In this document: positions 3,963-51,904 of the stretch, in pieces | Position numbering within the stretch: position 1 is the first letter of the stretch | Layout: each line of letters begins with the position of its first letter | Source: a virus | Lineage: Duplodnaviria > Heunggongvirae > Uroviricota > Caudoviricetes | DNA length: 64,000 nt | IMG/VR virus record: IMGVR_UViG_3300027798_000013 | Direction: 5' to 3' (one strand) | Notes under the pieces: generated by a model | Seen by the model: the letters and a program-made list of their open reading frames with translations, nothing else | Told to the model about the DNA's origin: nothing | Database searches by the model: none | Position numbers and translations under genes: made by a program

Positions 3963-4651
3963 TTGGCCTTCTCTATAAAATCCCTTGGGTACATGTTGCT
4001 AAAACTTTGCCAGCACAATTCATTTAACAATTCAAAGGGCTGTGGCTTATCCCATTCAATACCCAACGATGTGATATGTTTTTTTAATTCGTCCTGTCTA
4101 GTTGAATAAATGTGGCTTTCAACATCTTTAATGCTTATGTTGTTTTCGTTGTCTCGATAGGTAAAGAAATAATTAATACTTTTTAATTTGCCACCCACAA
4201 TGAAATAACTGCTAGGATGCATACTGTACTTCCACAATCCTAAACTCCTATGTGCTTTGATAATGTTAAGCATTTGTTCCTGCCAATCCGGAAGTACTTC
4301 GTCAAATGTGCAGTTACCATCTAAACTTTGTTGCCAAAAATCAGGGCCGTCAATTTCTAAATATAACTTGCGAGATGCTAGATCTATGTTTATAATGGTA
4401 GGAACCAAATCAGGATACACATTACGCATTTGTGTAATATAGTTTACTTCTCTTAACCACTTCTCTTCCATTTTAGCAGGATCGACTACTTGATTTTTGC
4501 CTGCATGATATTCGCTGTCATTATGATACCATTGTACGAATGTTTTTTTATCATCGCTTATAAGACTAGTGTAGATTAAATTATTACGCCAAGGTTCTTG
4601 GCCAGGAATTTGGTTAAAGTAATAATTTAGTGCCATGCTATAATTTATCAT
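3950..4651 (-). CDS. hypothetical protein, paralog family A (member 1 of 2)
   Basis: Shares a block with ORF 10560..11237 (PDWQEQMLNI vs PTWQEQIYQM, followed by a hydrophobic Y/F-rich segment). Confidence 0.5.
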   Translation of the reverse strand: MINYSMALNYYFNQIPGQEPWRNNLIYTSLISDDKKTFVQWYHNDSEYHAGKNQVVDPAKMEEKWLREVNYITQMRNVYPDLVPTIINIDLASRKLYLEIDGPDFWQQSLDGNCTFDEVLPDWQEQMLNIIKAHRSLGLWKYSMHPSSYFIVGGKLKSINYFFTYRDNENNISIKDVESHIYSTRQDELKKHITSLGIEWDKPQPFELLNELCWQSFSNMYPRDFIEKAKCIK

Positions 4652-4656
4652 AAATA

Positions 4657-5706
4657 TTGCCTATGCAGAAAATAACTGATACTATGTCATTATGCGAGCA
4701 TTGTTATAGACACGTGCCTGCTGTTAAGTTTGAAAAAGATGGGGCAATTTGGCTAGGCAAGACTTGCCCTAAACACGGATACTTGGAACACTTGGTAGAG
4801 CCAGATGCAGACTTTTATCTAGATTACAATTATCCAAAACACCCATTAACGTCTTATTTCATCGAAGTCACCAATCGTTGTAATTTAACGTGTCCACACT
4901 GTTATCAGTTACCAGACAACAAAAGTGTAGATTTACCAATTGATTATATTGTACAACAAGTGTCCAGCTGGCCAGACGATGGCTATTGTGTATCGTTAGC
5001 TGGAGCTGAACCTACTGTACGAAAAGACTTGGATCAGTTAATTCGAGCAATCAAAGCTATTCCCGGCAAGCCAAGAAGTATTATTGTGTTGACAAATGGT
5101 GTTAATTTGTCTAAAATAGAGTATGCAGAAAAGTTTAAAGACATTGAAGATTTGCATTGGACTATAGGATTGAATCATCCGGATTATCAAGGGCATACTG
5201 TTCGTGCTAAACAGATTCAGGGAATAGAAAATTGTGTCAAGCTAGGATTTAGCATTAAGAATATCAGTTACACGCTAGAAGATTTAGAGCAACTAGAATA
5301 CTGCTTGGACGAAATACACAAATTTTATCCAGATACTTGCAAGCAATTCAGGATCCGAGTTGGCGTTGATATTGGGCGTAATCCAGAAGGCCCGCCTGTA
5401 TACCTCAGTCAGTTGGTCGATGCTACAAAAGATATAGCATTGAAACGCAACTGGACATACAGGGAAAATCAGGACACTGGGATTCGAGCACATTTTCCGA
5501 TATATATTAATAACATATATCTTAAATTAATACAGTGGCCCGATGCTACTACTATTGATATGGATGAGATGCAAACAGAAACCTGGGCTGATTTATTGCC
5601 AGGCAAACCAATTAGTCCTTTAATACACCAAGTTATGTTACGGGATGCAAGTGTCAACAACGGTATGATGTTATACGATGTTGTACCTGAAAGATATAGG
5701 AGATAA
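4657..5706 (+). CDS. radical SAM enzyme with an N-terminal CxxC...CxxH ribbon-like segment
   Basis: CNLTCPHCYQ (CxxxCxxC) about 80 aa in. Upstream are CEHCYRH...CPKHGY, downstream GAEPT and TNG-like motifs. Confidence 0.75.
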   Translation: MPMQKITDTMSLCEHCYRHVPAVKFEKDGAIWLGKTCPKHGYLEHLVEPDADFYLDYNYPKHPLTSYFIEVTNRCNLTCPHCYQLPDNKSVDLPIDYIVQQVSSWPDDGYCVSLAGAEPTVRKDLDQLIRAIKAIPGKPRSIIVLTNGVNLSKIEYAEKFKDIEDLHWTIGLNHPDYQGHTVRAKQIQGIENCVKLGFSIKNISYTLEDLEQLEYCLDEIHKFYPDTCKQFRIRVGVDIGRNPEGPPVYLSQLVDATKDIALKRNWTYRENQDTGIRAHFPIYINNIYLKLIQWPDATTIDMDEMQTETWADLLPGKPISPLIHQVMLRDASVNNGMMLYDVVPERYRR

Positions 5707-5707
5707 A

Positions 5708-6775
5708 ATGAAAATTAGCAAAATACCAGGACTGGGAAGATTTGGAATCTTTATCGATGATGTAGATTTTACCACCATTACCGACGAGGAGTGGATGGAG
5801 ATTGGAAAACTACATTTACAAAATTTAGTCACGATCATACGTGACTGTAAATTAACTTGGGACAAGCAAACTGATTTTTGCACACAGTTTGGCGATACTA
5901 GATACGGTGTTAGATACCTAATACTTAAGAAATATCCAGGCAAAACATTTACACAGATAGCAAGGTTAGCCATGCAAGATGATCCCAGTGTGGATGAGAT
6001 TGATCGTATTAGATTAAAAAGCATATTCAATATGCAAGAACTTACAGCTGACGGAAAACACGTTATGCGAGTCACTGGCAAGAAGGACGAAAACGGTAAC
6101 GCTTTAGGCATGTTTGCAGAAGGTGAGTTATTGTGGCACAGCAACGAAAGCGGCACATTAACATTTACACCGGGCGTAGCATTGTTAGGAGCTGAGAATA
6201 TGATTGGTTCCAGCACTGGATTTTTGACTACACCGGACTACTATGAAAACGTGAGTAATGCGTTTCGTAGTGAGTTGGATGAGATGATCCTAGTACATAG
6301 ATTTACTCCTGGACGTATTAATCCAGGATTGCGTGTGGAGCAAGACGAAGTAATGCATGCCAACATGTGTCCCGAAGATGATATGGAAATACCTATGGTT
6401 ATTACTAGTCCGGGCGGTATTAAAGGTCTACACTATAGTACCAACACAATACACAATATCAAAGGACTTAGTAAAGAAGCCAGCGATGAGATCTTTAAAG
6501 TTATCAATTCAGAATTGTTTGTGGAAAAATACACATATGATCACTGGTACAAAAGCAATAACGATTTTTGTCTTTTTGACAACAGTATTACACTGCACCG
6601 CAGACTAGGCGACATTAAAGACAGACTGTGCTATCGTGTACAACATGATTATAGTAATTTGCAGGACGGATTTTGGCAACCATATTTGCACGAACCAACT
6701 GCTAAAAGATACGAAGAAGAAATCAAATATTATGTTGATCTAGCAAACATTAAGGACTTTAAGTTACCAGCATGA
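5708..6775 (+). CDS. TauD/TfdA-like putative Fe(II)/2OG dioxygenase
   Basis: N-terminal LGRFGIFIDDVDFTTITDEEWMEIGKLHLQNLVTIIRDC...FGD pattern typical of TauD-family N-termini, then WHSNESG. AGGAG sits 7 nt before the ATG at 5708. The track's upstream start overlaps the previous gene. Confidence 0.5.
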   Translation: MKISKIPGLGRFGIFIDDVDFTTITDEEWMEIGKLHLQNLVTIIRDCKLTWDKQTDFCTQFGDTRYGVRYLILKKYPGKTFTQIARLAMQDDPSVDEIDRIRLKSIFNMQELTADGKHVMRVTGKKDENGNALGMFAEGELLWHSNESGTLTFTPGVALLGAENMIGSSTGFLTTPDYYENVSNAFRSELDEMILVHRFTPGRINPGLRVEQDEVMHANMCPEDDMEIPMVITSPGGIKGLHYSTNTIHNIKGLSKEASDEIFKVINSELFVEKYTYDHWYKSNNDFCLFDNSITLHRRLGDIKDRLCYRVQHDYSNLQDGFWQPYLHEPTAKRYEEEIKYYVDLANIKDFKLPA

Positions 6776-7560
6776 GATCCTTTATTACATCAATAATGTT
6801 ACTTGGCGGAGTGATAGCACTATTCAATATCGAATGGTACTGGCTAGTGTTGGCATTGGTTTATACAACAGTGCTTAACGATGTGTTTTGCCATCGCATT
6901 TGCAGTCACGGCATGTTTGAAATTGATACCAAATCAATCACATATAAGATTATGACTTTTCTTGCAAGTGCTGACATGGGTTACGGGCCAGTCAAATGGA
7001 TTGTGATGTCACACAGTTTGCATCATATACACAGCGACAATGGTCCTGAGGACGTTATGAACTGGCGCTACCATTGGTACAGCACCACTATCGTTAGCCC
7101 GTGGCCTCGTAAGGATGTAAAGCCTGCTGACTACGATGACTATTCTAAAAAACAATGGAAGAAGCATGAAGAAATAATGAGAGACCCATGGACTACTTGG
7201 TGCTGTGATAACCAAGTTGCTATTTCTATTGGAACGTTTTTAATTTTAGCCATAGTTTTTCCGTTAGTATTGCTTAATGTAATATTTGTAGGTAGAGTTT
7301 TGCTGAGCGTCATGACTGGGCTTGCAGGATTTGTTGGGCATATTAAAAATGTTCCGGCAAGCTATAGAAATTTTAACACCAACGATACAACATCAAACAA
7401 TATTTTATTACATTATTTGTTCCTAGGAATGTTTGCTGGAATGTTACAAAACAATCATCACGGCCAGCCTAGGTCAGTTCGTCCCAATGCCAAATGGTGG
7501 GAGTTAGATACAAGTTTGCCTTTTGTATTAACATTAAAATATGCCATGGAAAAGAAATGA
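6772..7560 (+). CDS. membrane di-iron desaturase/hydroxylase-like protein
   Basis: Multiple hydrophobic segments. His boxes HRICSHG, HSLHHIHSD and NHHGQP, as in fatty-acid desaturase/hydroxylase family enzymes. Confidence 0.55.
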   Translation: MRSFITSIMLLGGVIALFNIEWYWLVLALVYTTVLNDVFCHRICSHGMFEIDTKSITYKIMTFLASADMGYGPVKWIVMSHSLHHIHSDNGPEDVMNWRYHWYSTTIVSPWPRKDVKPADYDDYSKKQWKKHEEIMRDPWTTWCCDNQVAISIGTFLILAIVFPLVLLNVIFVGRVLLSVMTGLAGFVGHIKNVPASYRNFNTNDTTSNNILLHYLFLGMFAGMLQNNHHGQPRSVRPNAKWWELDTSLPFVLTLKYAMEKK

Positions 7561-8360
7561 TCAAAGGTATCAACAATCTTCCATACTTGGACATGTCTCC
7601 TTATTTGGATATGGATCAGTTTGATAAACTACAGCCTGAGATATTAACAGGTTTTGCACTAGCACGTGAGTATGCTAAAGAAGGTACTTGGATGAAACCA
7701 GGTTTTACTTTTGATGATATGAGTTACCGACTTAGTTGGAAACCTATCTATCAGGCGATGGATGAGTTCATGCAACTGCCAAAAGATGAACCTATATATC
7801 AAGCTGGCATAAAATTAATGCCAACAGATTTTAAAAACTTTCAACAACGCAATAAATTTACACGATTCCTAAAAATGGCTATGAATGCTTACGATCCTTA
7901 CATTTATTATTACCTGTGGGAAGAAGGGTCGTGGGACGATAGAACAGCACCACGTACACTTACTCCTGAAGCAGAATACTTTCCTCATACAGTTAAATGG
8001 GTTGAGAGTTTAGTAGGCACTGTGTTCCAAGATATCGGCCGTGTTATATTCTTTCACTGTGAAGCAGATGGTATTCCTTTTGAACATAGAGATTTAGATG
8101 CTGAGAATGGTGTCAACGTTGTTAAACCACACCGCAACGAGTTTATACACATACGCCCCAACACTAAAAAAGCAATGTATTTGTGGGATCCGGAAACAAA
8201 GGACAAAACATACTTAAATACTAGAGCGGCTTGGTGGAATGATCAAGACTGGCACGGCGGAGAACGTATTATGGAACAAAGTTATAGCTTGCGTGTTGAC
8301 GGCAAGTTTACAGACGAGTTTCGTAAAACTTTAGGTATCGACCATTTGGAGAGTTACTAA
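7557..8360 (+). CDS. hypothetical protein
   Basis: ORF track. The start is moved to the ATG that overlaps the upstream stop (ATGA). Confidence 0.45.
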   Translation: MIKGINNLPYLDMSPYLDMDQFDKLQPEILTGFALAREYAKEGTWMKPGFTFDDMSYRLSWKPIYQAMDEFMQLPKDEPIYQAGIKLMPTDFKNFQQRNKFTRFLKMAMNAYDPYIYYYLWEEGSWDDRTAPRTLTPEAEYFPHTVKWVESLVGTVFQDIGRVIFFHCEADGIPFEHRDLDAENGVNVVKPHRNEFIHIRPNTKKAMYLWDPETKDKTYLNTRAAWWNDQDWHGGERIMEQSYSLRVDGKFTDEFRKTLGIDHLESY

Positions 8361-8914
8361 TGAAACTACTAGGAAATTATGCACACTGGATCAAACAAGA
8401 GTGGATTGATCACATATTAACCAACGATGGATGGGGATTACCAAGAGCATGGGGCAATGATCAAAAAAGTCGTGTTGAGGGTATGATTAGATTATGTGGC
8501 ATGAACGCTTGCGAACGAGCATTGGCCGCAGGATATGATTTCAGCCAAGTCAAGTATCACGTGTATAACAAATCAACTTCCCCATTCGATTTAAAATTTA
8601 CAGATGACGAAGATGACGTCGAATGGAGATTTGTTAAATTAAAACCTGGGGATGTTATGCCTATGCATTTAGACAGCGATATTCCCAATTACACTTGTAG
8701 GAAATATTGGATGCCGTTACAGGATTCTGATATAGGCCATGTGTTTATATGGAAAGACACTGCTATGCTAAATTGGAAGAAAGGAGACCTATTTCAATTT
8801 GATGATGCTAACGAATGGCACGGTGCAACTAATATCGGTTTTACTCCTAGGATTATACTCAACATAAATGTATGGAATCCTGATTTGGATATAATTGAAA
8901 ATGGAATTAATTAA
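8360..8914 (+). CDS. cupin-fold putative oxygenase, paralog
   Basis: MPMHLDSD...EWHGATN. The whole length is similar to the next ORF. Confidence 0.5.
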   Translation: MKLLGNYAHWIKQEWIDHILTNDGWGLPRAWGNDQKSRVEGMIRLCGMNACERALAAGYDFSQVKYHVYNKSTSPFDLKFTDDEDDVEWRFVKLKPGDVMPMHLDSDIPNYTCRKYWMPLQDSDIGHVFIWKDTAMLNWKKGDLFQFDDANEWHGATNIGFTPRIILNINVWNPDLDIIENGIN

Positions 8915-9422
8915 AAATTACGCAAGTTGGATAACTCCTGAGTTTTTAGAGTTTATACATACACACAATGGCGACACAGTACCAGTATGGCAACCTGACA
9001 AGTGGAAGGGACACCCTATGTTAGACGAAGCTAGGGAAAAAACTCGTACAGGATACGCACATCGTAATCATGACTTCCAACAATTTAATCCGTCGACTAA
9101 AGATATGAAACATTATGATCTTCAGATACCTATCATTCCCGAGGACGACAGAGCGCAACTGTGGTGGATTATTAAATTATTCCCAGGGCAAATGCAACCC
9201 ATGCATTTTGATCCGCATTTGTTAGGATGCGTTAATCCAAAACGCTATACTATGTTTTTGCAAGATTGGCAACCGGGACATGTCTTTACCTGGAATGACC
9301 AATACATATCTAATTATAAAGCCGGAGATTTATTCCAATGGTACGACCCTATGATGTATCACGGTGTTGTAAATATCGGCCACGAGATTAGATATACTTT
9401 ACAGATTACAACACACGATTAA
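8901..9422 (+). CDS. cupin-fold putative oxygenase, paralog
   Basis: QPMHFDPH...MYHGVVN. Its N-terminus MELIKNYASWITPEF parallels MKLLGNYAHWIKQEW of the preceding ORF. The true ATG is at 8901; the track began at a TTG. Confidence 0.5.
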   Translation: MELIKNYASWITPEFLEFIHTHNGDTVPVWQPDKWKGHPMLDEAREKTRTGYAHRNHDFQQFNPSTKDMKHYDLQIPIIPEDDRAQLWWIIKLFPGQMQPMHFDPHLLGCVNPKRYTMFLQDWQPGHVFTWNDQYISNYKAGDLFQWYDPMMYHGVVNIGHEIRYTLQITTHD

Positions 9423-9423
9423 C

Positions 9424-10017
9424 ATGTCTGCTTACATAACCGGCGAACATAATTTAACATTCCTCCACATACCCAAAACAGCAGGTACTAGTATACTTGA
9501 TTGGTTGCGTACTAATAAAGGCGATAGTAATATCGTCGAATGGGAAACCCATCCTAAACATTCAGAATTACCGCAGGGAAACACTTCTTTTGCTATTGTA
9601 AGGAATCCGTGGGATAGAATGGTCAGTGCTTATCATTATTTAAAAAACATATCACTACCAGAAGGTAGCAGTTGGCTTGCACTTAATAATATTTCGCAGG
9701 ATAATTTTCCTAACTTTGATGAATGGATTAATAATCTAGCAAACTATAAAAATCCAGATGTATATTGGTTTAGGCCTGAAACACAGCAAATAGAATGGCT
9801 GGATCGGCCAGTAGATATAATTTTAAGATTTGAAAATTTAGCAGAGGAGTTCAGACGGATACAACATCATTATGGATGTTTCGATCCGTTGCCATTATTA
9901 TACGCTACCAAACACGAATCCTATAAAAATTACTACACAGAAAAAACTAAATCGATTGTTGCAAAATTTTCGCAACGTGACATAGATACTTTCAAATATA
10001 GTTTTAATATCCAATAA
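9424..10017 (+). CDS. PAPS-dependent sulfotransferase family protein
   Basis: FLHIPKTAGTSILDWL (5'-PSB-like) and RNPWDRMVSAYHY (3'-PB-like) motifs. Confidence 0.65.
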   Translation: MSAYITGEHNLTFLHIPKTAGTSILDWLRTNKGDSNIVEWETHPKHSELPQGNTSFAIVRNPWDRMVSAYHYLKNISLPEGSSWLALNNISQDNFPNFDEWINNLANYKNPDVYWFRPETQQIEWLDRPVDIILRFENLAEEFRRIQHHYGCFDPLPLLYATKHESYKNYYTEKTKSIVAKFSQRDIDTFKYSFNIQ

Positions 10018-10597
10018 GATGAAACTGATATTTAGGAGTTAGTCCGGCATTGATGCCCGAGTGCCACTCTCTAAAATAATTCCATTCAAATAGTGTGCCT
10101 TGCGGGCTGGCAATAAAATAATCTTGTTCTTCTTTTCCTAAGTAAAAAATATGGCCATGTGTAGGCTTAGATATTGTACAAACAAATCGTCTCGGAGTAC
10201 CTTTCTCGAGCCATTTTCCTACCTTGTCTTCACCATCAAAGTGCCAAGGTGCCATAGTGCCGGGGTCCAGTCTACTAATCCATGATCTATGTACTCCGTT
10301 GAGTCCAAGATAAGTTGCAAGTTTACTAGTTAGTTCTCCTGAAAAACCAGTGCCCGGATAATAATTGCACCAGTTAATGGCGCCCATATTGAAATTAGCA
10401 TCTCTCCAGTTTTTAAATACGACAGACATTTCATTGCCGTCAGCTTCCATGGCTTCCCACTGTGGCCAATCGGTGGTTCCCGGTTGATGTATTTGTTCAG
10501 GTGCTCCAAGGGACTCAATTAATGAATTCCAATCTATATCGTTGTACGGTGCTAACAATTTACAATTTTTCATATAGCTTCCTATAAAAATTATCAA
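10004..10597 (-). CDS. cupin-fold putative oxygenase-like protein
   Basis: APWHFDGED...EWHSGIN pattern, similar to the other cupin ORFs. Confidence 0.4.
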   Translation of the reverse strand: MIIFIGSYMKNCKLLAPYNDIDWNSLIESLGAPEQIHQPGTTDWPQWEAMEADGNEMSVVFKNWRDANFNMGAINWCNYYPGTGFSGELTSKLATYLGLNGVHRSWISRLDPGTMAPWHFDGEDKVGKWLEKGTPRRFVCTISKPTHGHIFYLGKEEQDYFIASPQGTLFEWNYFREWHSGINAGLTPKYQFHLIGY

Positions 10598-11237
10598 ATG
10601 GACTGTTGGGCCATGTTGTATTTAGGTGATGCAACATAGTATTTTTAAAAAATATTCTAGAATCGAGATTTCCATCAGGAGTAGTAGCTTGTTTAAATCG
10701 TTCTGTAGAGTCACCGCCCATCATTTCTTTTATGTTCTCTAGTTTTATAAAGGGATCATACATGCTTGCACACGAATAGAAATCTATTGTTTTTATATTG
10801 TTGTTCCTATCTAAGAAGAAACAATGAGGATATAGTGCCATTTTATAACAATTGATATTTTTTAAATCACATAGCATTTGATAAATTTGTTCCTGCCAGG
10901 TAGGACATTCTTGGTCTAGATTTCGACCTCCAAATATAATATGATTTAGACTTTCCTGATGCCATTCTATAAAAATTTTATTGTCTTCTATTTCCAATAG
11001 CGTTGGGGCCCAACTATACCCTTGCATTTTTGTTAGGAATTCTACTTCGCGTTGAAAAAAGAAATCGATTAATTCTTTTGATAATTTTATGTCTGCTTGG
11101 TAAGGGCTGTTGTGATCCCATAACATACACATAATAGTTTGATCAGGATTTATTAATGGAGTGTACATTAGGTTTGTGGTACATGTTGAAACTCCGTTTA
11201 CTATTTTATACAAATATGTCCAGTTATCAATGTTCAT
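10560..11237 (-). CDS. hypothetical protein, paralog family A (member 2 of 2)
   Basis: Similar to ORF 3950..4651. Confidence 0.5.
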   Translation of the reverse strand: MNIDNWTYLYKIVNGVSTCTTNLMYTPLINPDQTIMCMLWDHNSPYQADIKLSKELIDFFFQREVEFLTKMQGYSWAPTLLEIEDNKIFIEWHQESLNHIIFGGRNLDQECPTWQEQIYQMLCDLKNINCYKMALYPHCFFLDRNNNIKTIDFYSCASMYDPFIKLENIKEMMGGDSTERFKQATTPDGNLDSRIFFKNTMLHHLNTTWPNSPFDNFYRKLYEKL

Positions 11238-11905
11238 ATAATTCTAAACTCCGCTGGCAACATATATTTCAAGATATCTAGTTTATCTTGCTCGATATTA
11301 AATTGTATTGTTAAATCACCTTGTGTAAAATTGTTTATGAATCCTGCTTTGTTTGCTTCATTCAACCAAGCACTCATTGTATTGTCAAACACATACCTGG
11401 CATGGTCGGGACTAAAGGAAGTGAATTGTCCAATGGCAACATCTACTGAATTTTTTAGTTTGTTATTTTTTAATAATTTTCTAACTACCAACTGTGTTCT
11501 AGGAGTACGTCCAAAGTTAGCGGCAGTGTGTAGAAATCCAGCATCCATATCATACCATATGCCATCTTGCAACATTGGATGCATTGTTTCTCTTACTAGG
11601 TCAATTAGATAGCTGTTGTCGCCGCGTATGTTCAAATGATAGCGATCGTCTATATCTGCATGAATTTGGTAACATTGATTGGATCCCAAATTTATTATCC
11701 TAGCTTGTCCCTTAGTTACTGGCAACGAATTGTAAATAGTTTCCCAAACTGTGCCCCTGTATTCATCCTTCAATGTCCACGGATCATAAAAGAAATCGCC
11801 TGTGGGTTGGTTAATGACTGTGGTTCTCATTTCGGTTATAGGCAATTGGTTACACGCCTCTTGCAATAAAACTGTATCGACTGTATAATTAGTTGGAGCT
11901 AGCAT
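11234..11905 (-). CDS. cupin-like hypothetical protein
   Basis: QIHADIDDRYHL motif (HxD...H). Confidence 0.4.
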   Translation of the reverse strand: MLAPTNYTVDTVLLQEACNQLPITEMRTTVINQPTGDFFYDPWTLKDEYRGTVWETIYNSLPVTKGQARIINLGSNQCYQIHADIDDRYHLNIRGDNSYLIDLVRETMHPMLQDGIWYDMDAGFLHTAANFGRTPRTQLVVRKLLKNNKLKNSVDVAIGQFTSFSPDHARYVFDNTMSAWLNEANKAGFINNFTQGDLTIQFNIEQDKLDILKYMLPAEFRII

Positions 11906-11945: not shown

Positions 11946-13208
11946 ATGAATATAAATACTCCCACATTTTGTATGCATCCTTTTACAGGATTAGCTACCA
12001 GAGAAGATGGCGCTATACAAGTATGTTGTCGTAGTCATCCAATTGGTAACATACAAGATAACACTTTGGAAGAAATATGGAACGGGGATAACATGAAGCG
12101 TATTCGTAAGCAAGTGCTTACAGGTTGTAGACCATCAGAATGCGAGCCTTGTTTTAGATTAGAAGATCAAGGTGTAGAGAGTTTGAGACAGCGACACATC
12201 TCGGGTAAGATTCCCGAAGCCCGTATTAATCTATATCCAACGGCTGTTCAATCTATGAATAGTGATTATACCATGCCGTTTGAGATTCCTACCATGGAAC
12301 TTAAACTAAACAACTTGTGTAATCTTAAATGCCGTATGTGCCATCCGGGAGACAGTACCGCGTGGAATGATTGGGCGGAAGTTAAAGAGTTTTACAAAGG
12401 TGAAGGGCAAGTTATATTTGATATTGTTGAAGCACACAATTTAGAAAAGAAACCGTTACTGGATAAGTTTGAAGATAATCCCAATTGGTGGGCAAGTTTA
12501 GAAAAGAACTTGCCATACTTCCGCCGTGTTGAGTTTGCAGGGGGCGAACCCCTAATGGACCCACAGCACTATCGTATATTAGATATGCTTGCACCTTACA
12601 GTGATCAAATTGAAATCAAATATGCCACTAACTTAACTACGCTGGGCAAGAGTAATCGCACCGTGTGGCAATACTGGCCCAAGTTTAAAAGTGTTGCTGT
12701 TAATGTAAGTATTGACGGAATTGGCGCTAGTTACGAATATGTACGAGGTAATGCTAGTTGGTCAGAAGTAGTGAACAATATTAAACAAATACAAACTATA
12801 CCTAATGTAAGCCGCATAGTAGGTGCGGTAGCTGTGCAGGTTAGCAATGTACTCATATTAGATAAAATGATTGAACTGTTCCTCAACGATTTGGGAATTG
12901 TATTCTACACTAATATGGTACAGTATCCCAATGTGCTATCTGCACAGGTTATTCCTAACGAATTAAAATCGCTTGCTGTTATTAAATTAAAAGCGGTTAG
13001 AGAATTAGTTCCGACTTTTAAATTAGTAAAAGAACATCCAATGTTAGAAGCATTAACTTACAAACAGATTGACGGCATAATTAATTTTATACTAGCGAAG
13101 GATAACACACACTTATGGGATGATTGCATAGAGTATAATCGACGCTTAGATGTTACAAGACAACAGAGTTTCTTTGACGTGACTCCGGAATTTGCTTCTT
13201 ACGTATGA
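11946..13208 (+). CDS. radical SAM enzyme, large type with an N-terminal Cys-rich domain
   Basis: CNLKCRMCHP core. N-terminus reads FCMHPF...VCCRSHP...GCRPSECEPC. Paralog of ORFs 16744..18129 and 43940..45136. Confidence 0.8.
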   Translation: MNINTPTFCMHPFTGLATREDGAIQVCCRSHPIGNIQDNTLEEIWNGDNMKRIRKQVLTGCRPSECEPCFRLEDQGVESLRQRHISGKIPEARINLYPTAVQSMNSDYTMPFEIPTMELKLNNLCNLKCRMCHPGDSTAWNDWAEVKEFYKGEGQVIFDIVEAHNLEKKPLLDKFEDNPNWWASLEKNLPYFRRVEFAGGEPLMDPQHYRILDMLAPYSDQIEIKYATNLTTLGKSNRTVWQYWPKFKSVAVNVSIDGIGASYEYVRGNASWSEVVNNIKQIQTIPNVSRIVGAVAVQVSNVLILDKMIELFLNDLGIVFYTNMVQYPNVLSAQVIPNELKSLAVIKLKAVRELVPTFKLVKEHPMLEALTYKQIDGIINFILAKDNTHLWDDCIEYNRRLDVTRQQSFFDVTPEFASYV

Positions 13209-14032
13209 AAATAACAAATCTCGATCCTAAAAAATACAAACGATTTTTTGCATTTGGATGCAGTTTTACCAATTATCAATGGTTGACATGGGCTGATATT
13301 ATAGGACATGATATAGAGTATTATGAAAATTGGGGCAAGCCTGGCGCCGGCAATCATTTTATCTTTAACAGTGTAATAGAGGCCGATGCAAAGTATGGCT
13401 TTGGCAAGGACGATTTGATTATTATCTTTTGGAGCACAAAGGAAAGAGAAGATAGATATCACAACAATGCATGGTTGCGCGATACTCTTCAAACTCAAGA
13501 AAAAACATACGGCAAAGAATGGGCTAAAAAGTTCAGTACAGATACTAGAGGATTTTTAATAAGAGATTTAGCATACATGAAAGCCATTCAAACTATACTG
13601 GAAAATAAAGAATGCGATTGGGCTAATTTTGCATGGTATGAATTTTTTAACAGTGAACAATTAAGAAAATCATTTGAGAATTCTAAAAATAAAGAACCTC
13701 TATTAAAAATTTGGAAAGAGAAAAGCCAAGAAGTTTACAATGGAAAAGATATTGCTGATTTTTTTGATGATCGCGATGCTATTAAACTGTATCAGGATGT
13801 CTTTATCAAAATAGATGCCACTTATAAATGGTTCAATGATGGACGTATTAATTCTAGAGTTGTGCCTGATAACGATGTTCACCCTACGCCAGAAGAAGCA
13901 CTACAATTTTTAGACTGGGTATGGCCAAATAATACAATAAGCAATAACGCTAGGGAACTAGCAAAACAATGGCAACTAAAAATATTTGATACGTTTGATA
14001 CGTTTGATCGTAAACAAGCAAGTAGACTATGA
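13205..14032 (+). CDS. SGNH/GDSL-like hydrolase family protein
   Basis: FAFGCSFTNY (block I), GAGNHF (block III), DNDVHPTP (block V-like). Paralog of 14906..15751. Confidence 0.55.
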   Translation: MKITNLDPKKYKRFFAFGCSFTNYQWLTWADIIGHDIEYYENWGKPGAGNHFIFNSVIEADAKYGFGKDDLIIIFWSTKEREDRYHNNAWLRDTLQTQEKTYGKEWAKKFSTDTRGFLIRDLAYMKAIQTILENKECDWANFAWYEFFNSEQLRKSFENSKNKEPLLKIWKEKSQEVYNGKDIADFFDDRDAIKLYQDVFIKIDATYKWFNDGRINSRVVPDNDVHPTPEEALQFLDWVWPNNTISNNARELAKQWQLKIFDTFDTFDRKQASRL

Positions 14033-14925
14033 TTAAAGTAACCAGTCGTTGGCCGCATCAGGACAGCATCAAGATAGAATGGAATCTTGGTAAACGATGT
14101 AACTACGACTGTAGTTATTGCCCAGCAAGTATACATGATAACTCAAGCCCGCACACTGACATAGAGATTCTTAAATCCACTGTGGACAGACTAATGACAC
14201 TAGGCAAACCCATACGTCTTAGTTTTACTGGAGGCGAGCCGTGTGTTCATCCTAAGTTTAGTGAGCTAGTAAAATACTGTAAACATGTTGGCATTAGTTG
14301 GATCAGTGTGACAACTAACGGAACATTGCCTTATGAATTTTATTCAGTATTGGAAGCGGATCAAATTGTGTTCAGTATACATTTAGAGTTTGACTGGAGG
14401 CGTGTTTTTAATACTGTAGAAAGTGTAGTAGATTTAACCAACAAAAAAGTCATAGCACAAATAATGGCGCATCACGATTATATGGATGCTGTATTACAAT
14501 TACGTGCTAGATGCTTGTTAGCCCATATTCCTAATACTGTAAGACGTATACGATGGACTGAAGGCGACCACGATTTATTTGATGATATGCGTTATAACAC
14601 AAATGATTTAAACTGGCTCAATGAACAAGAAGCCACTGTGGACGGTAATTGTGTAATAGACGGTGAGCAAATAATACACGCTAACGATGTTATTAAATTG
14701 CACCTAAACAAATACAAAGATTGGACTTGCAACGCAGGTATAGAAAGTCTAATGATAAATTGGAACGGGGATGTACACAGAGCGACTTGTAGAGTCGGTG
14801 GTAGTCTTGGCAACATATATGAAGGCAACTTCGTTGCTCCTAGCGAACCTGTAACTTGTGACCGTAATTTCTGTACCTGCGCGGCTGACATTCCACTTAC
14901 AAAATATGCACATACAAACACTTAA
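14029..14925 (+). CDS. radical SAM enzyme, short type with a C-terminal Cys cluster (SPASM/twitch-like)
   Basis: CNYDCSYCP near the N-terminus. C-terminal CNAGIES...CRVGG...CDRNFCTC. Confidence 0.8.
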   Translation: MIKVTSRWPHQDSIKIEWNLGKRCNYDCSYCPASIHDNSSPHTDIEILKSTVDRLMTLGKPIRLSFTGGEPCVHPKFSELVKYCKHVGISWISVTTNGTLPYEFYSVLEADQIVFSIHLEFDWRRVFNTVESVVDLTNKKVIAQIMAHHDYMDAVLQLRARCLLAHIPNTVRRIRWTEGDHDLFDDMRYNTNDLNWLNEQEATVDGNCVIDGEQIIHANDVIKLHLNKYKDWTCNAGIESLMINWNGDVHRATCRVGGSLGNIYEGNFVAPSEPVTCDRNFCTCAADIPLTKYAHTNT

Positions 14926-15751
14926 CCCTTCCAAATACAAAAGACTATTTACTTTTGGATGCAGTTTTACACGATACCTTTGGCCAACTTGGGCAGACAT
15001 TCTTGCAGAAGATATACCATACTATGAAAACTGGGGTTGTGGTGGCGCGGGCAATCTTTATATTTCTAATGCTATTATGGAAGCCCACAATAGGCATACA
15101 TTTACTGAAGATGATTTGATTGTAGTCATGTGGAGTAACAAAAATAGAGAAGATCGATATGTGGATAACAAATGGATGTTAACTCCTGGAGCAATGCTAG
15201 AAGAACGTTACGGGGCTAAATGGATTAAAAAGTTTTACGATGATCGCGGATGCATGATTAGAGATCTAGCCTTGATTCAATCAACGCAACTTTTCTTGGA
15301 TACACTAGACAGTGATTGGATTAACATGTCTATCAATACGTTTGCCAACGGTGATATCGATAAAATAAAAAAAATCGCTCCTGCATACTTGGAAGGTAAT
15401 GCAGATTACCATCAAGAAATTATTGTTCCATTACATCAGGGTGTTATTTCAGACCTGTTTATAGATCGAGATGTTATTGACTGCTATAAAAATGTATTTT
15501 TAAAGTTACAGCCGTCTGTGCTTAATATGTTACAAGATACTAGTGAATACAAATTGCGAGGCCGTCCTAACAAAAGTGATGGACATCCTACTCCTGCTGA
15601 AATTTTAAAATATTTAGATTTAGTATTTCCGGGCAATACCATTAGTTCCAAAGCTAGAGCTTATGCAGAATCATTTGAAGAACAGATATGGTCCCAAAGA
15701 ACTACTACAGAGATTTTTGAATCTAGATCGCAAACAATCATTAGATTATAA
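14906..15751 (+). CDS. SGNH/GDSL-like hydrolase family protein
   Basis: LFTFGCSFTRY, GAGNLY, SDGHPTP. The homologous N-terminus places the start at the ATG at 14906. Confidence 0.55.
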   Translation: MHIQTLNPSKYKRLFTFGCSFTRYLWPTWADILAEDIPYYENWGCGGAGNLYISNAIMEAHNRHTFTEDDLIVVMWSNKNREDRYVDNKWMLTPGAMLEERYGAKWIKKFYDDRGCMIRDLALIQSTQLFLDTLDSDWINMSINTFANGDIDKIKKIAPAYLEGNADYHQEIIVPLHQGVISDLFIDRDVIDCYKNVFLKLQPSVLNMLQDTSEYKLRGRPNKSDGHPTPAEILKYLDLVFPGNTISSKARAYAESFEEQIWSQRTTTEIFESRSQTIIRL

Positions 15752-18967: not shown

Positions 18968-20033
18968 GTACTACCTGATCTCTTGATTTTCCAAAATCAT
19001 TTATTGGTGCGCGACCACACATCCTGGCACAGGTTATTAAACTGCGTTTGTCCCAGTACTCGTACCACAAGTGTTGATAGCTATCGGACTCTATGATATC
19101 TTTTACGCCAAGTGCTACAGCGTTCAAATTGCCAATGCCGCCAAACGCTTCAACTATATCATGATATTGTGATAACATTTCATATCGCACTTCAGCGGCA
19201 TCATTTTTATCTATAAAGGTATACGGCGCACTTGCTATCCAACAACATGGAAATACATTCTTAAATGCATCTATATATACTGCTCGCTGATTTAGTGCTT
19301 GACAATCAATAACCGATTCGGATACTATTTGCTTGTAAGCATTAATAGCATTCTTGTCGATAAACTTTAAGGGAGTATCGGATGCTGGCTCGATTATATG
19401 TGTGACATTTCCATTCTTATCTAATACATCTACTTTAGGCTCGAGTAGGAAACGAGAACTGTTTTTCATAACAAAACTGGCAAAACCTAGATCCTTGCTC
19501 ATCTGCCTAGCTTTTTCTACTTGATCTTGGTTGTGTTTGAATCTGATAAAACACCATTCAGCAGTTCCGCCGGCGGCAATAAATGCCTTGGCATTTTCTA
19601 TTATATTTTCAAAACTTGTTCCAATACGGTAGACGTTGTGTGTATCACTAAGTCCATCTAACGCAAATACTACTGTGTGGATTTTTGGTAATGCTTTGGC
19701 CAAGTCACTCCACCAGCTGGTAGTTCTAGCACTGCCGTTAGTGTGTATACGCACATTGAGATTGGGATTGGTTTCTGTAGAATATCTACACATGTCGATC
19801 AGTTGTTTGTTCAATATAGGATCTCCAAAATTCCCACAAAAGAAAAAACCGTTTATTTGATTAAGTACTTCGGGAGTCATAATAGTTTTGAAATCTTCCA
19901 AAGACCAATCATTTAATTTTATTAAAGGATTCTCCAAGCCGCCACTACGATTGCGCGAACACATGGGACAACTGGCTTGGCAGTTGTTGGTAATCTCTAA
20001 ATGTACATCTAATAACTCGTTAAAGTGAAACAT
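18957..20033 (-). CDS. radical SAM enzyme
   Basis: CQASCPMCSR at the N-terminus, IHTNGS, FALDGLSDTHNVYR. C-terminal Cys-rich segment. Confidence 0.75.
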   Translation of the reverse strand: MFHFNELLDVHLEITNNCQASCPMCSRNRSGGLENPLIKLNDWSLEDFKTIMTPEVLNQINGFFFCGNFGDPILNKQLIDMCRYSTETNPNLNVRIHTNGSARTTSWWSDLAKALPKIHTVVFALDGLSDTHNVYRIGTSFENIIENAKAFIAAGGTAEWCFIRFKHNQDQVEKARQMSKDLGFASFVMKNSSRFLLEPKVDVLDKNGNVTHIIEPASDTPLKFIDKNAINAYKQIVSESVIDCQALNQRAVYIDAFKNVFPCCWIASAPYTFIDKNDAAEVRYEMLSQYHDIVEAFGGIGNLNAVALGVKDIIESDSYQHLWYEYWDKRSLITCARMCGRAPINDFGKSRDQVVHEN

Positions 20034-32417: not shown

Positions 32418-33113
32418 ATGTTTGGTGCAAATTATACAAATGGCGGTATTTTAAATTATCGCTCAGCAGAAGAAATTAATTCGGCCATGGGTCGAGTTTA
32501 CGGACACATGAGTCTGGCAGTTGTTGTATCCATGCTGATCAGTTACTTTGTGGGCACTAGCCCAGAGTTGATACAATTCTTTTTTACAGGTGTACTAAAG
32601 TGGATTGTGATCTTTGCTCCACTGGCGGCCATTTTTGGTGTCAGCTACGTGCTAGGCAACAATCCCAGCAAAGGTGTAGCTCAGTTATGTTTGCATGGTT
32701 TTGCGGCACTTATGGGCTTGAGCTTTAGCATGATATTTGCTGTGTTCAACATGGGTAGTATTGTGTCAGCATTTATGGGTGCGGCAATCCTGTTTGGTGT
32801 AATGAGTGGCTACGGTTACTTTACCAAAAAGGATCTAAGTGGCATGGGACAAATGATGTTTGTGGGATTGATTGCTATTGTGATTGCCAGCATTGTTAAT
32901 ATCTTTATTGGCTCAACTGTCATGCAAATGGTTATCTCGGCATTGGCTATCATTATCTTTTTGGGACTCACTGCTTATGACACACAACGAATCCGTGAAG
33001 AAGTCAGTGTTGACACTAGCCCAGCCGTGGAAGTAACAGGTGCATTATCTTTGTACATGAACTTTATCAACTTGTTCCTAAACTTGTTACAACTGTTTGG
33101 CGAAAGAAAATAA
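32418..33113 (+). CDS. BI-1/YccA family multi-TM membrane protein
   Basis: About seven hydrophobic segments with the YccA-like layout; N-terminus YRSAEEINSAMGRVYGHMSLAV. Confidence 0.65.
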   Translation: MFGANYTNGGILNYRSAEEINSAMGRVYGHMSLAVVVSMLISYFVGTSPELIQFFFTGVLKWIVIFAPLAAIFGVSYVLGNNPSKGVAQLCLHGFAALMGLSFSMIFAVFNMGSIVSAFMGAAILFGVMSGYGYFTKKDLSGMGQMMFVGLIAIVIASIVNIFIGSTVMQMVISALAIIIFLGLTAYDTQRIREEVSVDTSPAVEVTGALSLYMNFINLFLNLLQLFGERK

Positions 33114-51846: not shown

Positions 51847-51904
51847 ATACTATTTACATTCGGATTATAAAATTGGTTTGATAAATATCATATCGAGGGC
51901 AATC

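What the first reader, a model, noticed from the sequence alone, without database searches (positions are those of the whole stretch)
9424..10017. Sulfation module: a sulfotransferase with a distant APS-kinase-like/nucleotidyltransferase fusion and a TauD-like enzyme
A PAPS-type sulfotransferase (PKTAGTS and RNPWDR motifs) lies in the same island as a fusion gene at 20033-20824. Its N-terminal half has the GSGKTT P-loop followed by D-D-V-R, in the order seen in adenylylsulfate kinase. Its C-terminal half has the HxGH and ISxTxIR motifs of nucleotidylyltransferases. If the nucleotidyltransferase half adenylylates sulfate, or another acid, and the kinase half phosphorylates APS, the phage would make its own PAPS donor. 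TauD-family enzymes act on sulfonates and sulfate esters. Together these hint at a sulfated product, either a glycan or a small molecule.
Basis: inference. Interest (0 to 1): 0.65.

Follow-up and report, generated by a model that had tools for sequence, protein, structure and literature searches.

The report
Phage sulfotransferase plus mini PAPS synthase
This uncultured large phage carries a sulfotransferase and a compact two-domain enzyme (a cut-down APS kinase joined to a small NMNAT-like nucleotidyltransferase); across many unrelated viruses and marine bacteria these genes travel together or with other APS enzymes, so the fusion is probably a new, very small way of making the sulfate donor PAPS.

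Summary
ORF 9424-10017 (+) is a family-2 sulfotransferase (ST) with intact PAPS-binding motifs. ORF 20033-20824 (-) fuses an APS-kinase-like P-loop domain to a ~115-residue HxGH nucleotidyltransferase (NT). ORF 5678-6775 is TauD-like. The kinase half matches APS kinases best by sequence and fold, and it keeps the APS-contacting Asp, Arg, Phe and Arg residues. The NT half is NMNAT-derived, not a canonical ATP sulfurylase. Its contexts nevertheless all involve APS:
- it is fused or adjacent to the reduced kinase;
- it is fused to canonical CysC in a marine family;
- in SAR116 it lies directly upstream of aprM-aprB-aprA plus cysC, where sat lies in Allochromatium;
- 13 of 80 ST-bearing viral loci carry the kinase/NT within 10 kb, and six of them have it directly adjacent to the ST.
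None of the window's 26 other island genes tested recurs with ST in this way, and TauD does not. The fusion is far commoner than the ST, and the 80 closest viral loci show no ST in their flanks, so it also has ST-independent uses. No biochemistry exists. Best reading: a minimal PAPS synthase feeding a phage sulfation step, probably on hydroxyl groups made by the four AspH-like oxygenases flanking the ST.

The parts
9424..10017 (+). Sulfotransferase, family 2, 197 aa. 5'-PSB motif HIPKTAGTS and 3'-PB motif VRNPWDRMVS.
   Evidence: Pfam PF03567 41.8 bits; phrog_3347; motif conservation in 121 homologues; 3'-PB region aligns to a solved sulfotransferase, 5x2b.
20033..20824 (-). Bifunctional fusion protein, 263 aa: APS-kinase-like domain plus NMNAT-like nucleotidyltransferase. 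Candidate minimal PAPS synthase.
   Evidence: (phrog_10255 'kinase', 162 bits).
20405..20824 (-). Kinase half, residues 1-140. P-loop GLPGSGKTT; NADD in place of DGDN; R42, F50, R55, Q58; shortened lid.
   Evidence: Pfam APS_kinase 47.3 bits. Best PDB sequence hit is APS kinase 2yvu. Foldseek top six and most of the top 50 are APS kinases. D39, R42, F50 and R55 are conserved in 163-165 of 165 family representatives and align to the APS-contact residues of M. tuberculosis CysC (PMC4373884).
20033..20398 (-). Nucleotidyltransferase half, residues 143-263 plus stop. Motifs GRWQPWHDGH, NPF, GRGVGY, ISATKIR. About 50 residues shorter than NMNAT.
8360..8914 (+). AspH-like cupin oxygenase (HxD...H), two genes upstream of the ST. 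Candidate hydroxylase that makes the acceptor OH (inferred).
   Evidence: Pfam Asp_Arg_Hydrox 31.3 bits; motif MHLDSD...WHGATNIG in the translation.
8895..9422 (+). Paralogous cupin-like protein directly upstream of the ST (MHFDPH...YHGVVNIG).
   Evidence: Motif read from the translation. No Pfam hit. Conserved next to the ST in relatives L008-L011.
10004..10597 (-). Paralogous cupin-like protein directly downstream of the ST, convergent (WHFDGE...WHSGINAG).
   Evidence: Motif read from the translation. No Pfam hit.
11234..11905 (-). Fourth AspH-like cupin (IHADID...LHTAANFG).
   Evidence: Weak Pfam Asp_Arg_Hydrox, 14.3 bits, below the cut-off; motif in the translation.
5678..6775 (+). TauD/clavaminate-synthase-like 2OG oxygenase. 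It lies in the island, but membership of the sulfation module is not supported.
   Evidence: Pfam TauD 55 bits. Absent from the ST-bearing island variant L010/L011. Found with ST in only 1 of 80 viral ST loci, the syntenic relative L100.

Best explanation
The 263-aa protein is a minimal bifunctional PAPS synthase with the same domain order as animal PAPSS (kinase at the N-terminus, adenylyltransferase at the C-terminus). Three steps are proposed.

Step 1 (inferred): the ~115-residue NMNAT-derived HxGH domain transfers AMP from ATP to sulfate, giving APS and PPi. It has lost the nicotinamide-riboside-binding segment and gained two invariant arginines.

Step 2 (inferred from conserved residues and fold): the cut-down APS kinase domain phosphorylates the 3'-OH of APS to give PAPS.

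Step 3 (inferred): the sulfotransferase at 9424-10017 uses that PAPS to O-sulfate an acceptor made in the same island. The most likely acceptor is a hydroxyl group installed by the four AspH-like cupin oxygenases that flank the ST, on a peptide, protein or glycan.

The fusion is a widespread gene in this phage group, whereas the ST is an accessory consumer of its product. Shown here: domain identities, residue conservation and repeated gene linkage. Not shown: any enzymatic activity, the donor, or the acceptor.
For: 1. Kinase half is APS-kinase-like.
- Pfam APS_kinase 47.3 bits; best PDB sequence hits are APS kinases; APS kinases dominate the Foldseek ranking.
- The residues that hold APS in M. 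tuberculosis CysC (D480, R483, F492, R497; PMC4373884) align to D39, R42, F50 and R55, conserved in 163-165 of 165 representatives. An aromatic (Y/F105) aligns to the lid Phe.

2. The NT domain is always found with APS enzymes.
- It is fused or overlapping with the reduced kinase in phages and in 63+7 of 80 bacterial loci.
- It is fused to a full canonical CysC (212 bits) in an abundant marine family.
- In SAR116 loci L022, L027 and L028 it lies immediately upstream, on the same strand, of aprM, aprB (130 bits) and aprA (685 bits). A phosphoesterase and canonical CysC follow. This is the position that sat holds in the co-transcribed sat-aprMBA operon of A. vinosum (PMC3779200).

3. Linkage to ST.
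- 13 of 80 ST-bearing IMG/VR loci carry the kinase/NT within 10 kb. It is directly adjacent or overlapping in L102, L105, L107, L106, L156 and L158, and also in L013, L014 and the SAR86 locus L076.
- The ST proteins in these cases are only 23-46% identical to one another, so the linkage is old or was gained repeatedly.
- Among the 27 island genes tested, only the fusion recurs with ST outside the syntenic relatives.
- In the cultured-phage collection only 3 records carry this ST. One also has the fusion (DLP6) and one has canonical CysC (LR756500).

4. The kinase can occur with ST without the NT (L106; canonical CysC alone in LR756500). This fits a sulfurylase step that the host can supply.

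5. The ST has canonical, conserved PAPS-binding motifs.

6. There is precedent: beta-hydroxylase + sulfotransferase + PAPS-synthetase neighbourhoods were predicted to hydroxylate and then sulfate collagen-like or tail-collar proteins (PMC2938197).
Against: - The kinase departs from canonical APS kinase. The first Asp of DGDN is Asn in 147 of 165 representatives, the ISP Ser is Ala or Cys, and the lid is about 20 residues shorter. It fails the NCBIfam equivalog cut-offs (36 vs 139 bits).
- The fusion is vastly commoner than the ST: about 8000 scored candidate clusters with E<=1e-3 (the best 120 are 80-91% identical), against about 31 close ST clusters.
- The 80 closest viral fusion loci have no ST within 10 kb, and L180 has the island without the ST.
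- Casjensviridae phages carry the fusion next to a NADAR gene and have no detectable ST.
- Most SAR86 pairs lie beside a methyltransferase-like gene, not an ST.
- In this window the two genes are 10 kb apart on opposite strands.
Confidence: 0.6

Rival explanations
1. NAD+ salvage enzyme, like NadR or NARP3. The kinase half phosphorylates nicotinamide riboside and the NMNAT-like half adenylylates NMN to NAD+, for example to counter NAD-depleting defences. The ST is unrelated and uses host PAPS.
For: - The NT half's closest relatives are NadM/archaeal NMNATs.
- A NADAR gene overlaps the start of the fusion in Sano, Bacata and Bhz60, and lies two genes from CysC in LR756500.
- Phages are known to carry NadR-like NR-to-NAD+ enzymes (NARP3; PMC13464706).
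- The fusion is widespread without ST.
Against: - The kinase half is APS-kinase-like, not RNK-like. NadR scores 17 bits against 47 for APS kinase, and no NadR appears in the Foldseek top 50.
- The NT lacks about 50 residues of NMNAT and has Arg-Asp where NMNATs have Gly-Ser.
- It scores 23 bits against NMNAT cut-offs of 127-181.
- This reading does not explain the fusion to canonical CysC, the aprMBA-cysC context or the repeated adjacency to ST.
- There is no NADAR in the window.
Confidence: 0.12
2. The fusion makes a PAPS-like but non-sulfate donor, as in Campylobacter O-methyl-phosphoramidate synthesis. There, an NT (Cj1416) and an APS-kinase homologue (Cj1415) help build 3'-phospho-CDP-phosphoramidate. 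The sulfotransferase-fold enzyme would then transfer that other group to a glycan.
For: - The MeOPN pathway is a precedent (PMC11800397).
- The shortened kinase lid and altered DGDN motif could reflect a different nucleotide.
- Bacterial kinase/NT pairs and several viral cassettes lie in polysaccharide loci: UDP-glucose dehydrogenase, Wzz, KpsF-like, GT2 and Capsule_synth.
Against: - No glutamine-kinase or amidohydrolase partners were seen.
- Both phosphosulfate-binding Arg and both adenine-stacking aromatics are kept.
- The NT is linked to APS reductase and canonical CysC, which are specific to sulfate chemistry.
- The ST motifs are those of ordinary PAPS-dependent enzymes.
- The relationship to Cj1415/Cj1416 could not be tested by sequence.
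Confidence: 0.12
3. Kinase plus nucleotidyltransferase activate a small alcohol or sugar (X -> X-P -> NDP-X), as LicA/LicC, HldE or TagD-type systems do, to decorate a glycan. Co-occurrence with ST would only reflect shared residence in glycan-modification clusters.
For: - The genes lie in polysaccharide loci.
- In other proteins the kinase half is fused to an SGNH-like domain (P0269, P0331).
Against: - The kinase acceptor site is that of a nucleotide (APS) binder.
- The kinase occurs with ST without the NT (L106), and the NT occurs without the kinase next to aprMBA. Neither fits an obligate X-kinase/X-P transferase pair.
- The canonical CysC fusion is unexplained.
Confidence: 0.07
4. No functional link in this particular window. 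The fusion is a core housekeeping gene that happens to lie at the edge of a mosaic island, and the ST draws on the host PAPS pool.
For: - The genes are 10 kb apart on opposite strands.
- The island is mosaic, and close relatives have the fusion without the ST (L180) or the ST without a nearby fusion (L010).
- In the 328-kb relative L003 the fusion lies in a different neighbourhood.
Against: - Even if position here is incidental, the two products are linked elsewhere by direct adjacency in at least 8 diverged loci.
- A genome that has both would be expected to couple them metabolically.
Confidence: 0.09

Closest known systems
Bifunctional PAPS synthase (metazoan PAPSS1/2) and bacterial Sat-CysC or CysN-CysC fusions
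   Same: One polypeptide combines an HxGH adenylyltransferase with a P-loop APS kinase. The domain order (kinase at the N-terminus, transferase at the C-terminus) is that of human PAPSS (PMC11697783). The APS-contact residues of the kinase are kept.
   Different: - The transferase domain is about 115 residues and NMNAT-derived. It is not a ~400-residue ATP sulfurylase with a PUA-like domain, and it shows no sequence match to Sat.
- The kinase has NADD in place of DGDN and a lid about 20 residues shorter.
- The total of 263 aa compares with about 620 aa.
Archaeal/NadM-type NMN adenylyltransferase; NadR; phage NARP3 enzyme Bas30_86
   Same: The GRxQPxHxGH, NPF and ISxTxIR motifs and the fold. 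Like NadR and NARP3, it joins an NT to a P-loop kinase (PMC13464706).
   Different: - The domain order is reversed.
- The kinase is of the APS-kinase lineage, not RNK.
- The NT lacks the segment between beta3 and the C-terminal helix and has Arg-Asp in place of Gly-Ser.
- The genomic partners are ST, CysC and AprMBA rather than PnuC or NAD genes.
Campylobacter jejuni MeOPN donor pathway (Cj1415 kinase and Cj1416 nucleotidyltransferase)
   Same: An APS-kinase homologue and a nucleotidyltransferase, encoded side by side in a surface-glycan locus, build a 3'-phosphorylated nucleotide donor analogous to PAPS (PMC11800397).
   Different: That pathway needs two further enzymes (Cj1417, Cj1418) and uses CTP. 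No such partners were seen here. Sequence relationship not tested.
sat-aprMBA operon of sulfur oxidisers (Allochromatium vinosum)
   Same: A gene for an adenylyltransferase lies immediately upstream of aprM-aprB-aprA on the same strand (PMC3779200). The SAR116 loci have the NT gene in that position.
   Different: The upstream gene is the 129-aa NT, not a ~400-aa Sat. Canonical cysC lies downstream.
Predicted beta-hydroxylase + sulfotransferase + PAPS-synthetase neighbourhoods (Iyer et al. 2010, PMC2938197)
   Same: AspH-family oxygenases sit next to a P-loop sulfotransferase with a dedicated PAPS supply. The proposed logic is hydroxylation followed by sulfation of collagen-like or tail-collar proteins or peptides. 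Phage dioxygenase/halogenase arrays are also described there.
   Different: In that study the PAPS synthetase is canonical. Here it is the compact fusion, and the island additionally holds 7 radical SAM genes. The acceptor is unknown.
CoA synthase (PPAT + dephospho-CoA kinase)
   Different: The kinase family is different, and there is no link to pantothenate genes.

Membership tests
APS kinase (CysC, PF01583) | Walker A P-loop GxxGxGK(T/S) | tested here: met
   GLPGSGKTT; G14, K15 and T16 conserved in 161-164 of 165.
APS kinase (CysC, PF01583) | Family model score above the curated threshold over the whole domain | tested here: inconclusive
   Pfam 47.3 bits exceeds 21.1, but only model positions 4-94 of 152 match. 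NCBIfam TIGR00455 gives 36.3 bits against a cut-off of 138.7, and PRK05541 46.6 against 127.
APS kinase (CysC, PF01583) | LDGD(N) motif with both aspartates | tested here: not met
   The sequence is L-N-A-D-D. The second Asp (D39) is conserved in 163 of 165; the first is Asn in 147 of 165. Mutating both Asp to Ala abolishes human APSK activity (as cited in PMC11697783).
APS kinase (CysC, PF01583) | APS-binding residues: two Arg on the phosphosulfate and two aromatics sandwiching the adenine | tested here: met
   R42 (165/165), R55 (164/165), F50 (164/165), Y/F105 (163/165), aligned to R483, R497, F492 and F576 of Mtb CysC. The lid alignment is uncertain.
APS kinase (CysC, PF01583) | Full-length lid with the conserved Lys and Arg (KGLYKKAR) | tested here: not met
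   The lid is about 20 residues shorter and the KGLYKKAR segment is absent.
APS kinase (CysC, PF01583) | Phosphorylates APS to PAPS | not testable with these tools
   Needs an enzyme assay or cysC complementation.
ATP sulfurylase (Sat, PF01747) | HxGH motif in a Rossmann-like nucleotidyltransferase fold | tested here: met
ATP sulfurylase (Sat, PF01747) | Sequence membership, with the QxRN and GRDHAG motifs and the PUA-like N-domain | tested here: not met
   No Pfam or PDB sequence hit to any ATP sulfurylase at E<=10. The domain is about 115 aa with no N-domain. Only a GR(D/G)VGY motif is loosely similar.
ATP sulfurylase (Sat, PF01747) | Genomic coupling to APS-consuming enzymes | tested here: met
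   Fused to CysC; upstream of aprMBA-cysC; adjacent to the kinase and ST.
ATP sulfurylase (Sat, PF01747) | Forms APS from ATP and sulfate | not testable with these tools
   Needs a 35S-sulfate or molybdolysis assay.
NMN adenylyltransferase (archaeal/NadM type) | GRFQPxHxGH, NPF and SxTxxR motifs | tested here: met
   GRWQPWHDGH, NPF, ISATKIR; profile E 2.5e-10 to 2qjt.
NMN adenylyltransferase (archaeal/NadM type) | Family model score above threshold and full-length domain (~170 aa) | tested here: not met
   23-24 bits against cut-offs of 127-181. The domain is about 115 aa, and HMMER aligns only the first ~70 and last ~25 positions.
NMN adenylyltransferase (archaeal/NadM type) | Association with NAD metabolism genes | tested here: inconclusive
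   NADAR is adjacent in Casjensviridae. None is present in the window or in the other loci scanned with the NADAR profile.
Sulfotransferase family 2 (PF03567) | Model score above threshold | tested here: met
   41.8 bits against 22.
Sulfotransferase family 2 (PF03567) | 5'-PSB (PKxxGT/S) and 3'-PB (RxPxxRxxS) PAPS-binding motifs | tested here: met
   P17, K18, G21, R60, N61, P62, D64, R65 and S68 are 95-100% conserved.
Sulfotransferase family 2 (PF03567) | Transfers sulfate from PAPS to a defined acceptor | not testable with these tools
   The acceptor is unknown.
TauD/TfdA 2OG oxygenase as part of the sulfation module | Consistent co-occurrence with ST or the fusion | tested here: not met
   Found in only 1 of 80 ST loci (syntenic L100) and absent from L010/L011.

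The most novel reading that the evidence does not exclude
The ~115-residue NMNAT-derived domain is a third, previously unrecognised class of sulfate adenylyltransferase, alongside Sat and CysD. That would make the 263-aa fusion the smallest known PAPS synthase. It would be abundant in aquatic phages, spread as a mobile kinase/NT cassette through SAR86 and other marine bacteria reported to lack sulfate assimilation genes, and would replace sat in the aprMBA operons of SAR116.
Probability: 0.5. Interest if true: 0.82.

Novelty: new variant of a known kind. Interest (0 to 1): 0.68.

Why it matters
Only two enzyme lineages are known to carry out sulfate activation. A third, tiny one would change how sulfur metabolism is annotated. 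Thousands of phage and marine bacterial genes now labelled 'kinase', 'ABC-type ATPase' or 'adenylylsulfate kinase' would be affected. It would fill an apparent gap in SAR116 and SAR86, which have APS reductase or CysC-type genes with no sulfurylase gene nearby. It would also show that phages bring their own PAPS supply to sulfate glycans or proteins during infection. The protein is small and soluble-looking, and it can be tested directly by complementation and a 35S assay. It would also be a compact PAPS-regeneration module for biocatalytic sulfation.

Tried and rejected
- Megablast of the island against 50,697 phage records gave no match.
- AF2 on the full-length protein with 22 close homologues gave a poor C-terminal half (pLDDT 30-50). 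This was solved by modelling the C half alone, with the marine NT-CysC family added to the alignment.
- I tested whether the 144-aa ORF between NADAR and CysC in LR756500 is the NT domain. It is not (hhalign probability 0.2).
- I searched for NADAR in the window and in seven other held loci. It was found only in L093, the locus that supplied one of the profile's seed sequences.
- I searched all held loci for CysD and CysN homologues and found none. I looked for PAPS-reductase-like or other sulfur genes among ten further window ORFs and found none.
- I first assumed the 80 bacterial loci were NT-CysC fusions. They are mostly split reduced-kinase/NT pairs. The organism of the true NT-canonical-CysC family remains unknown.
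- Kinase half fused to an SGNH-like domain, compared with the window's two SGNH-like paralogues: only weak similarity (E 0.01-0.14). Not pursued.
- The metallophosphoesterase at 27137-28000 as a PAP phosphatase: it is homologous to a DLP6 gene near that phage's fusion (E 3e-31) but unrelated to the SAR116 phosphoesterase, and it is rarely linked to the fusion. Dropped.
- The promoter/terminator scan was at chance level.
- The BFVD fold search gave only weak generic hits. The afdb50 library was unavailable.
- The Cj1415 paper PMC5938747 is not held, so the relationship to Cj1415/1416 is untested.
Full report
1. What is there

The window is an uncultured large phage. It has no near match among 50,697 phage records. 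It has PHROG hits, a DNA ligase and ClpP. Close relatives occur on IMG/VR and metagenome contigs of up to 328-346 kb.

Between about 0.4 and 21.8 kb lies a lower-GC island (36-39% against 41-44% elsewhere). It is packed with tailoring enzymes:
- seven radical SAM genes;
- five or six AspH-like cupins;
- a TauD-like oxygenase (5678-6775);
- a fatty-acid-desaturase-like gene;
- two SGNH-like paralogues;
- the sulfotransferase (ST);
- the fusion.

The ST at 9424-10017 (+) is one 197-aa ORF. It hits Pfam Sulfotransfer_2 at 41.8 bits. Its PAPS-binding motifs HIPKTAGTS and VRNPWDRMVS are largely 85-100% conserved in 121 homologues.

The fusion at 20033-20824 (-) is one 263-aa ORF, translationally coupled to radical SAM genes on both sides.

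2. The kinase half

Residues 4-91 match Pfam APS_kinase at 47.3 bits. The best PDB sequence hits are APS kinases (2yvu at E 3.8e-7, PAPSS1, Sat/CysC). An AF2 model of this half is confident (pLDDT 76-94 over most of it), and its best Foldseek matches in the PDB are mostly APS kinases.

In M. tuberculosis CysC, APS is held as follows (PMC4373884):
- Asp480 lies near the ribose hydroxyls;
- Arg483 and Arg497 hold the phosphosulfate;
- Phe492 and Phe576 sandwich the adenine.

An alignment of 165 family representatives with canonical CysC puts D39, R42, F50 and R55 at these core positions. They are conserved in 163-165 of 165. Y/F105 aligns to the lid Phe.

There are departures from canonical APS kinase. 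The first Asp of DGDN is Asn in 147 of 165. The ISP serine is Ala or Cys. The lid is about 20 residues shorter. NCBIfam equivalog thresholds are not reached. It is therefore a reduced derivative of APS kinase whose acceptor pocket still looks built for APS. It is not a dNMP or NR kinase.

3. The nucleotidyltransferase (NT) half

However, it is about 50 residues shorter than NMNAT. HMMER aligns only the first ~70 and last ~25 positions. The family has invariant Arg186 and Arg233 where NMNATs have Gly-Ser and no conserved counterpart. A truncated acceptor site with new arginines fits a small anionic acceptor. That is inference, not proof.

4. Context of the NT domain

This evidence moved my judgement most.

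(a) The two halves also occur as separate, overlapping genes. The NT also occurs fused to a full canonical CysC (P0374: PF01583 at 212 bits over positions 2-151). That family has more than 100 clusters in marine metagenomes and lies on low-GC bacterial chromosomes.

(b) In 80 bacterial genome loci, 63 have a split reduced-kinase/NT pair (mostly SAR86), 7 have the fusion and 10 have the NT alone. SAR86 assemblies were reported to lack sulfate uptake and assimilatory reduction enzymes (PMC3358033).

(c) In SAR116/Puniceispirillales loci L022, L027 and L028 (and in L024, where the contig ends after aprM), the stand-alone NT gene lies immediately upstream, on the same strand, of:
- aprM;
- aprB (130 bits to 1jnr_B);
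- aprA (685 bits to 2fja_A);
- a phosphoesterase and a small ORF;
- canonical cysC (223 bits to E. coli CysC).

In Allochromatium vinosum the gene in exactly that position, co-transcribed with aprMBA, is sat, the ATP sulfurylase (PMC3779200).

Every recurrent partner of the NT domain makes or consumes APS.

5. Link to the sulfotransferase

A scan of IMG/VR with an ST alignment returned at least 412 viral stretches. In the 80 loci kept (1.1 Mb), 13 carry the kinase/NT within 10 kb. Direct adjacencies, often with overlapping stop and start codons, are:

| Locus | Arrangement |
|---|---|
| L102 | fusion 3975-4844, ST 4846-5487 |
| L105, L107 | fusion, then ST |
| L106 | kinase half alone, then ST |
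| L156 | kinase, NT, ST |
| L158 | 134-aa CysC-like kinase 9275-9679, NT 9654-10001, ST 9998-10567, inside a sugar-modification operon |

L175 has the fusion with six ST paralogues. Further cases are L014 (AspH-like gene, fusion, ST) and L013 (radical SAM, Trp halogenase, two 2OG oxygenases, ST, one unknown gene, fusion). The SAR86 locus L076 has kinase half, NT half and an ST-like gene.

The ST proteins in these cases are only 23-46% identical to one another.

As an internal control, none of the window's 26 other island genes tested recurs with ST outside the two syntenic relatives in more than two loci. The fusion recurs in ten or more.

Among cultured or deposited phages only three records carry this ST. 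DLP6 also has the fusion, and the huge phage LR756500 has canonical CysC, with its ST sitting among GT2, methyltransferase and capsule genes.

6. The asymmetry

The reverse does not hold. The fusion has about 8000 scored candidate clusters at E<=1e-3, and the best 120 are 80-91% identical to the window protein. Close ST homologues number about 31 clusters.

The 80 closest viral fusion loci show no ST within their flanks. Window-like synteny would put the ST 19 nt beyond the flank, as in L205/L100. However, only about 5 of the 80 have this island, and L180 has it without the ST.

Casjensviridae phages pair the fusion with a NADAR gene and have no detectable ST. Most SAR86 pairs follow a methyltransferase-like gene.

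The fusion therefore makes something of general use, and the ST is one consumer of it. In this window the two genes are 10 kb apart, so the link here is inferred from comparison, not from position.

7. TauD and the acceptor

TauD travels with ST only in the nearest relatives. It is absent from island variant L010/L011, which keeps the ST. It is not part of the module.

What does flank the ST closely, both here and in relatives, are four paralogous AspH-like cupins with HxD...H motifs (8360-8914, 8895-9422, 10004-10597, 11234-11905). AspH or 2OG oxygenases also lie next to the cassette in L013 and L014.

Iyer et al. (PMC2938197) had already predicted bacterial beta-hydroxylase + sulfotransferase + PAPS-synthetase neighbourhoods that hydroxylate and then sulfate collagen-like or tail-collar proteins. 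In other viral loci the ST lies in glycan operons.

The acceptor in this phage is unknown. I favour a hydroxyl installed by the neighbouring oxygenases on a peptide, protein or glycan, with low confidence.

8. Verdict

Best explanation, at confidence about 0.6: the fusion is a minimal PAPS synthase. An NMNAT-derived sulfate adenylyltransferase is joined to a reduced APS kinase, and it supplies the phage ST.

Rivals:

| Rival | Confidence |
|---|---|
| NadR/NARP3-like NAD salvage | 0.12 |
| MeOPN-like non-sulfate 3'-phospho-nucleotide donor | 0.12 |
| X-kinase plus NDP-X activation | 0.07 |
| No coupling in this genome | 0.09 |

Relative to known systems this is a new variant of a known kind. 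The logic of PAPSS and of hydroxylase-ST-PAPS neighbourhoods is known. The compact enzyme, and in particular the putative new sulfurylase lineage, is not. Everything about catalysis is inferred, and the tests are simple (a 35S assay and cysC/cysDN complementation).

Noticed in passing
window 4657-5706, 11946-13208, 14029-14925, 15746-16747, 16744-18129, 18957-20033, 20821-21783; also 39899-45136: The 64-kb window is unusually rich in radical SAM genes. Seven lie in the island and pass the Pfam threshold. A second tandem block of four putative ones lies at 39.9-45.1 kb, supported by weak Pfam or PHROG hits.
   Followed up: partly
window 11946-13208 and 16744-18129: In two of the radical SAM proteins the SPASM-like Cys-rich domain lies at the N-terminus, before the radical SAM core. 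The usual position is C-terminal.
   Followed up: no
window 52234-63999 (runs off the end): A giant ORF of at least 3922 aa with no Pfam match begins [31 protein letters not shown]. It is not listed by the ORF tool because it runs off the window. It could be a fibre-like structural protein and a candidate substrate for the modification enzymes.
   Followed up: partly
window 51815-52225: An IscA/HesB-type iron-sulfur cluster assembly protein (Pfam Fe-S_biosyn, 69 bits) lies just upstream of the giant ORF. This is plausible support for the many radical SAM enzymes.
   Followed up: no
L027 8001-13434; also L022, L028, L024: In SAR116/Puniceispirillales genomes the 129-aa NT gene lies directly upstream of aprM-aprB-aprA, followed by a metallophosphoesterase, a small ORF and canonical cysC. 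This is the position of sat in sat-aprMBA operons.
   Followed up: yes
L001 6565-7738, L094 3565-4741, L095 3565-4741; L093 6795-8222: In Casjensviridae phages (Sano, Bacata, Bhz60) a NADAR-domain gene overlaps the start of the fusion gene. In huge phage LR756500 a NADAR gene lies two genes from canonical CysC, next to a PNK3P/HAD phosphatase. This association is not explained by the PAPS model.
   Followed up: partly
L175/L176 1-16238; L145: One viral contig carries six sulfotransferase paralogues plus the fusion within 16 kb. Another carries three STs plus the fusion.
   Followed up: no
L013 26-6801: A single-strand operon on a freshwater contig binned as Bacteroidetes (probably phage): radical SAM, unknown, tryptophan halogenase (323 bits), two 2OG-Fe(II) oxygenases, ST, unknown, fusion.
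   Followed up: partly
window 13205-14032 and 14858-15751; proteins P0269, P0331: Two paralogous SGNH-like proteins (FGCSFT...GAGN) lie in the island. In other metagenomic proteins the reduced kinase half is fused to an SGNH-like domain (GDSFT...GASND). Similarity to the window paralogues is only marginal (E 0.01-0.14).
   Followed up: partly
L017-L091 (for example L023, L040, L059, L090): The stand-alone NT protein sequences shown for MAGs assigned to SAR86, SAR116, Woeseiaceae and Marinoscillum look nearly identical by eye, yet sit in different neighbourhoods, several beside Wzz, UDP-glucose dehydrogenase or KpsF-like genes. This suggests a mobile cassette, or mis-binning.
   Followed up: partly
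window 27137-28000; L002 5025-5822: A calcineurin-like phosphoesterase in the window is homologous (30% identity, E 3e-31) to the 'Ser/Thr phosphatase' two genes upstream of the fusion in phage DLP6. It was found in only 2 further fusion loci.
   Followed up: partly
window 4657-5706; L098 5938-7035: A radical SAM protein with an HMPTM-type N-terminal zinc ribbon lies in the island. A homologous architecture lies next to a distant ST homologue on an unrelated contig.
   Followed up: no
window 32418-33113, 34907-35527, 37374-38699: Bax-inhibitor-1-like membrane protein (184 bits), ClpP protease (209 bits) and ATP-dependent DNA ligase are encoded outside the island.
   Followed up: no
window 6772-7560 / 7494-8360: The desaturase-like ORF and the next ORF overlap by 67 nt as listed. 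The true start of the downstream gene is probably a later ATG, since relatives call it at 266 aa.
   Followed up: no
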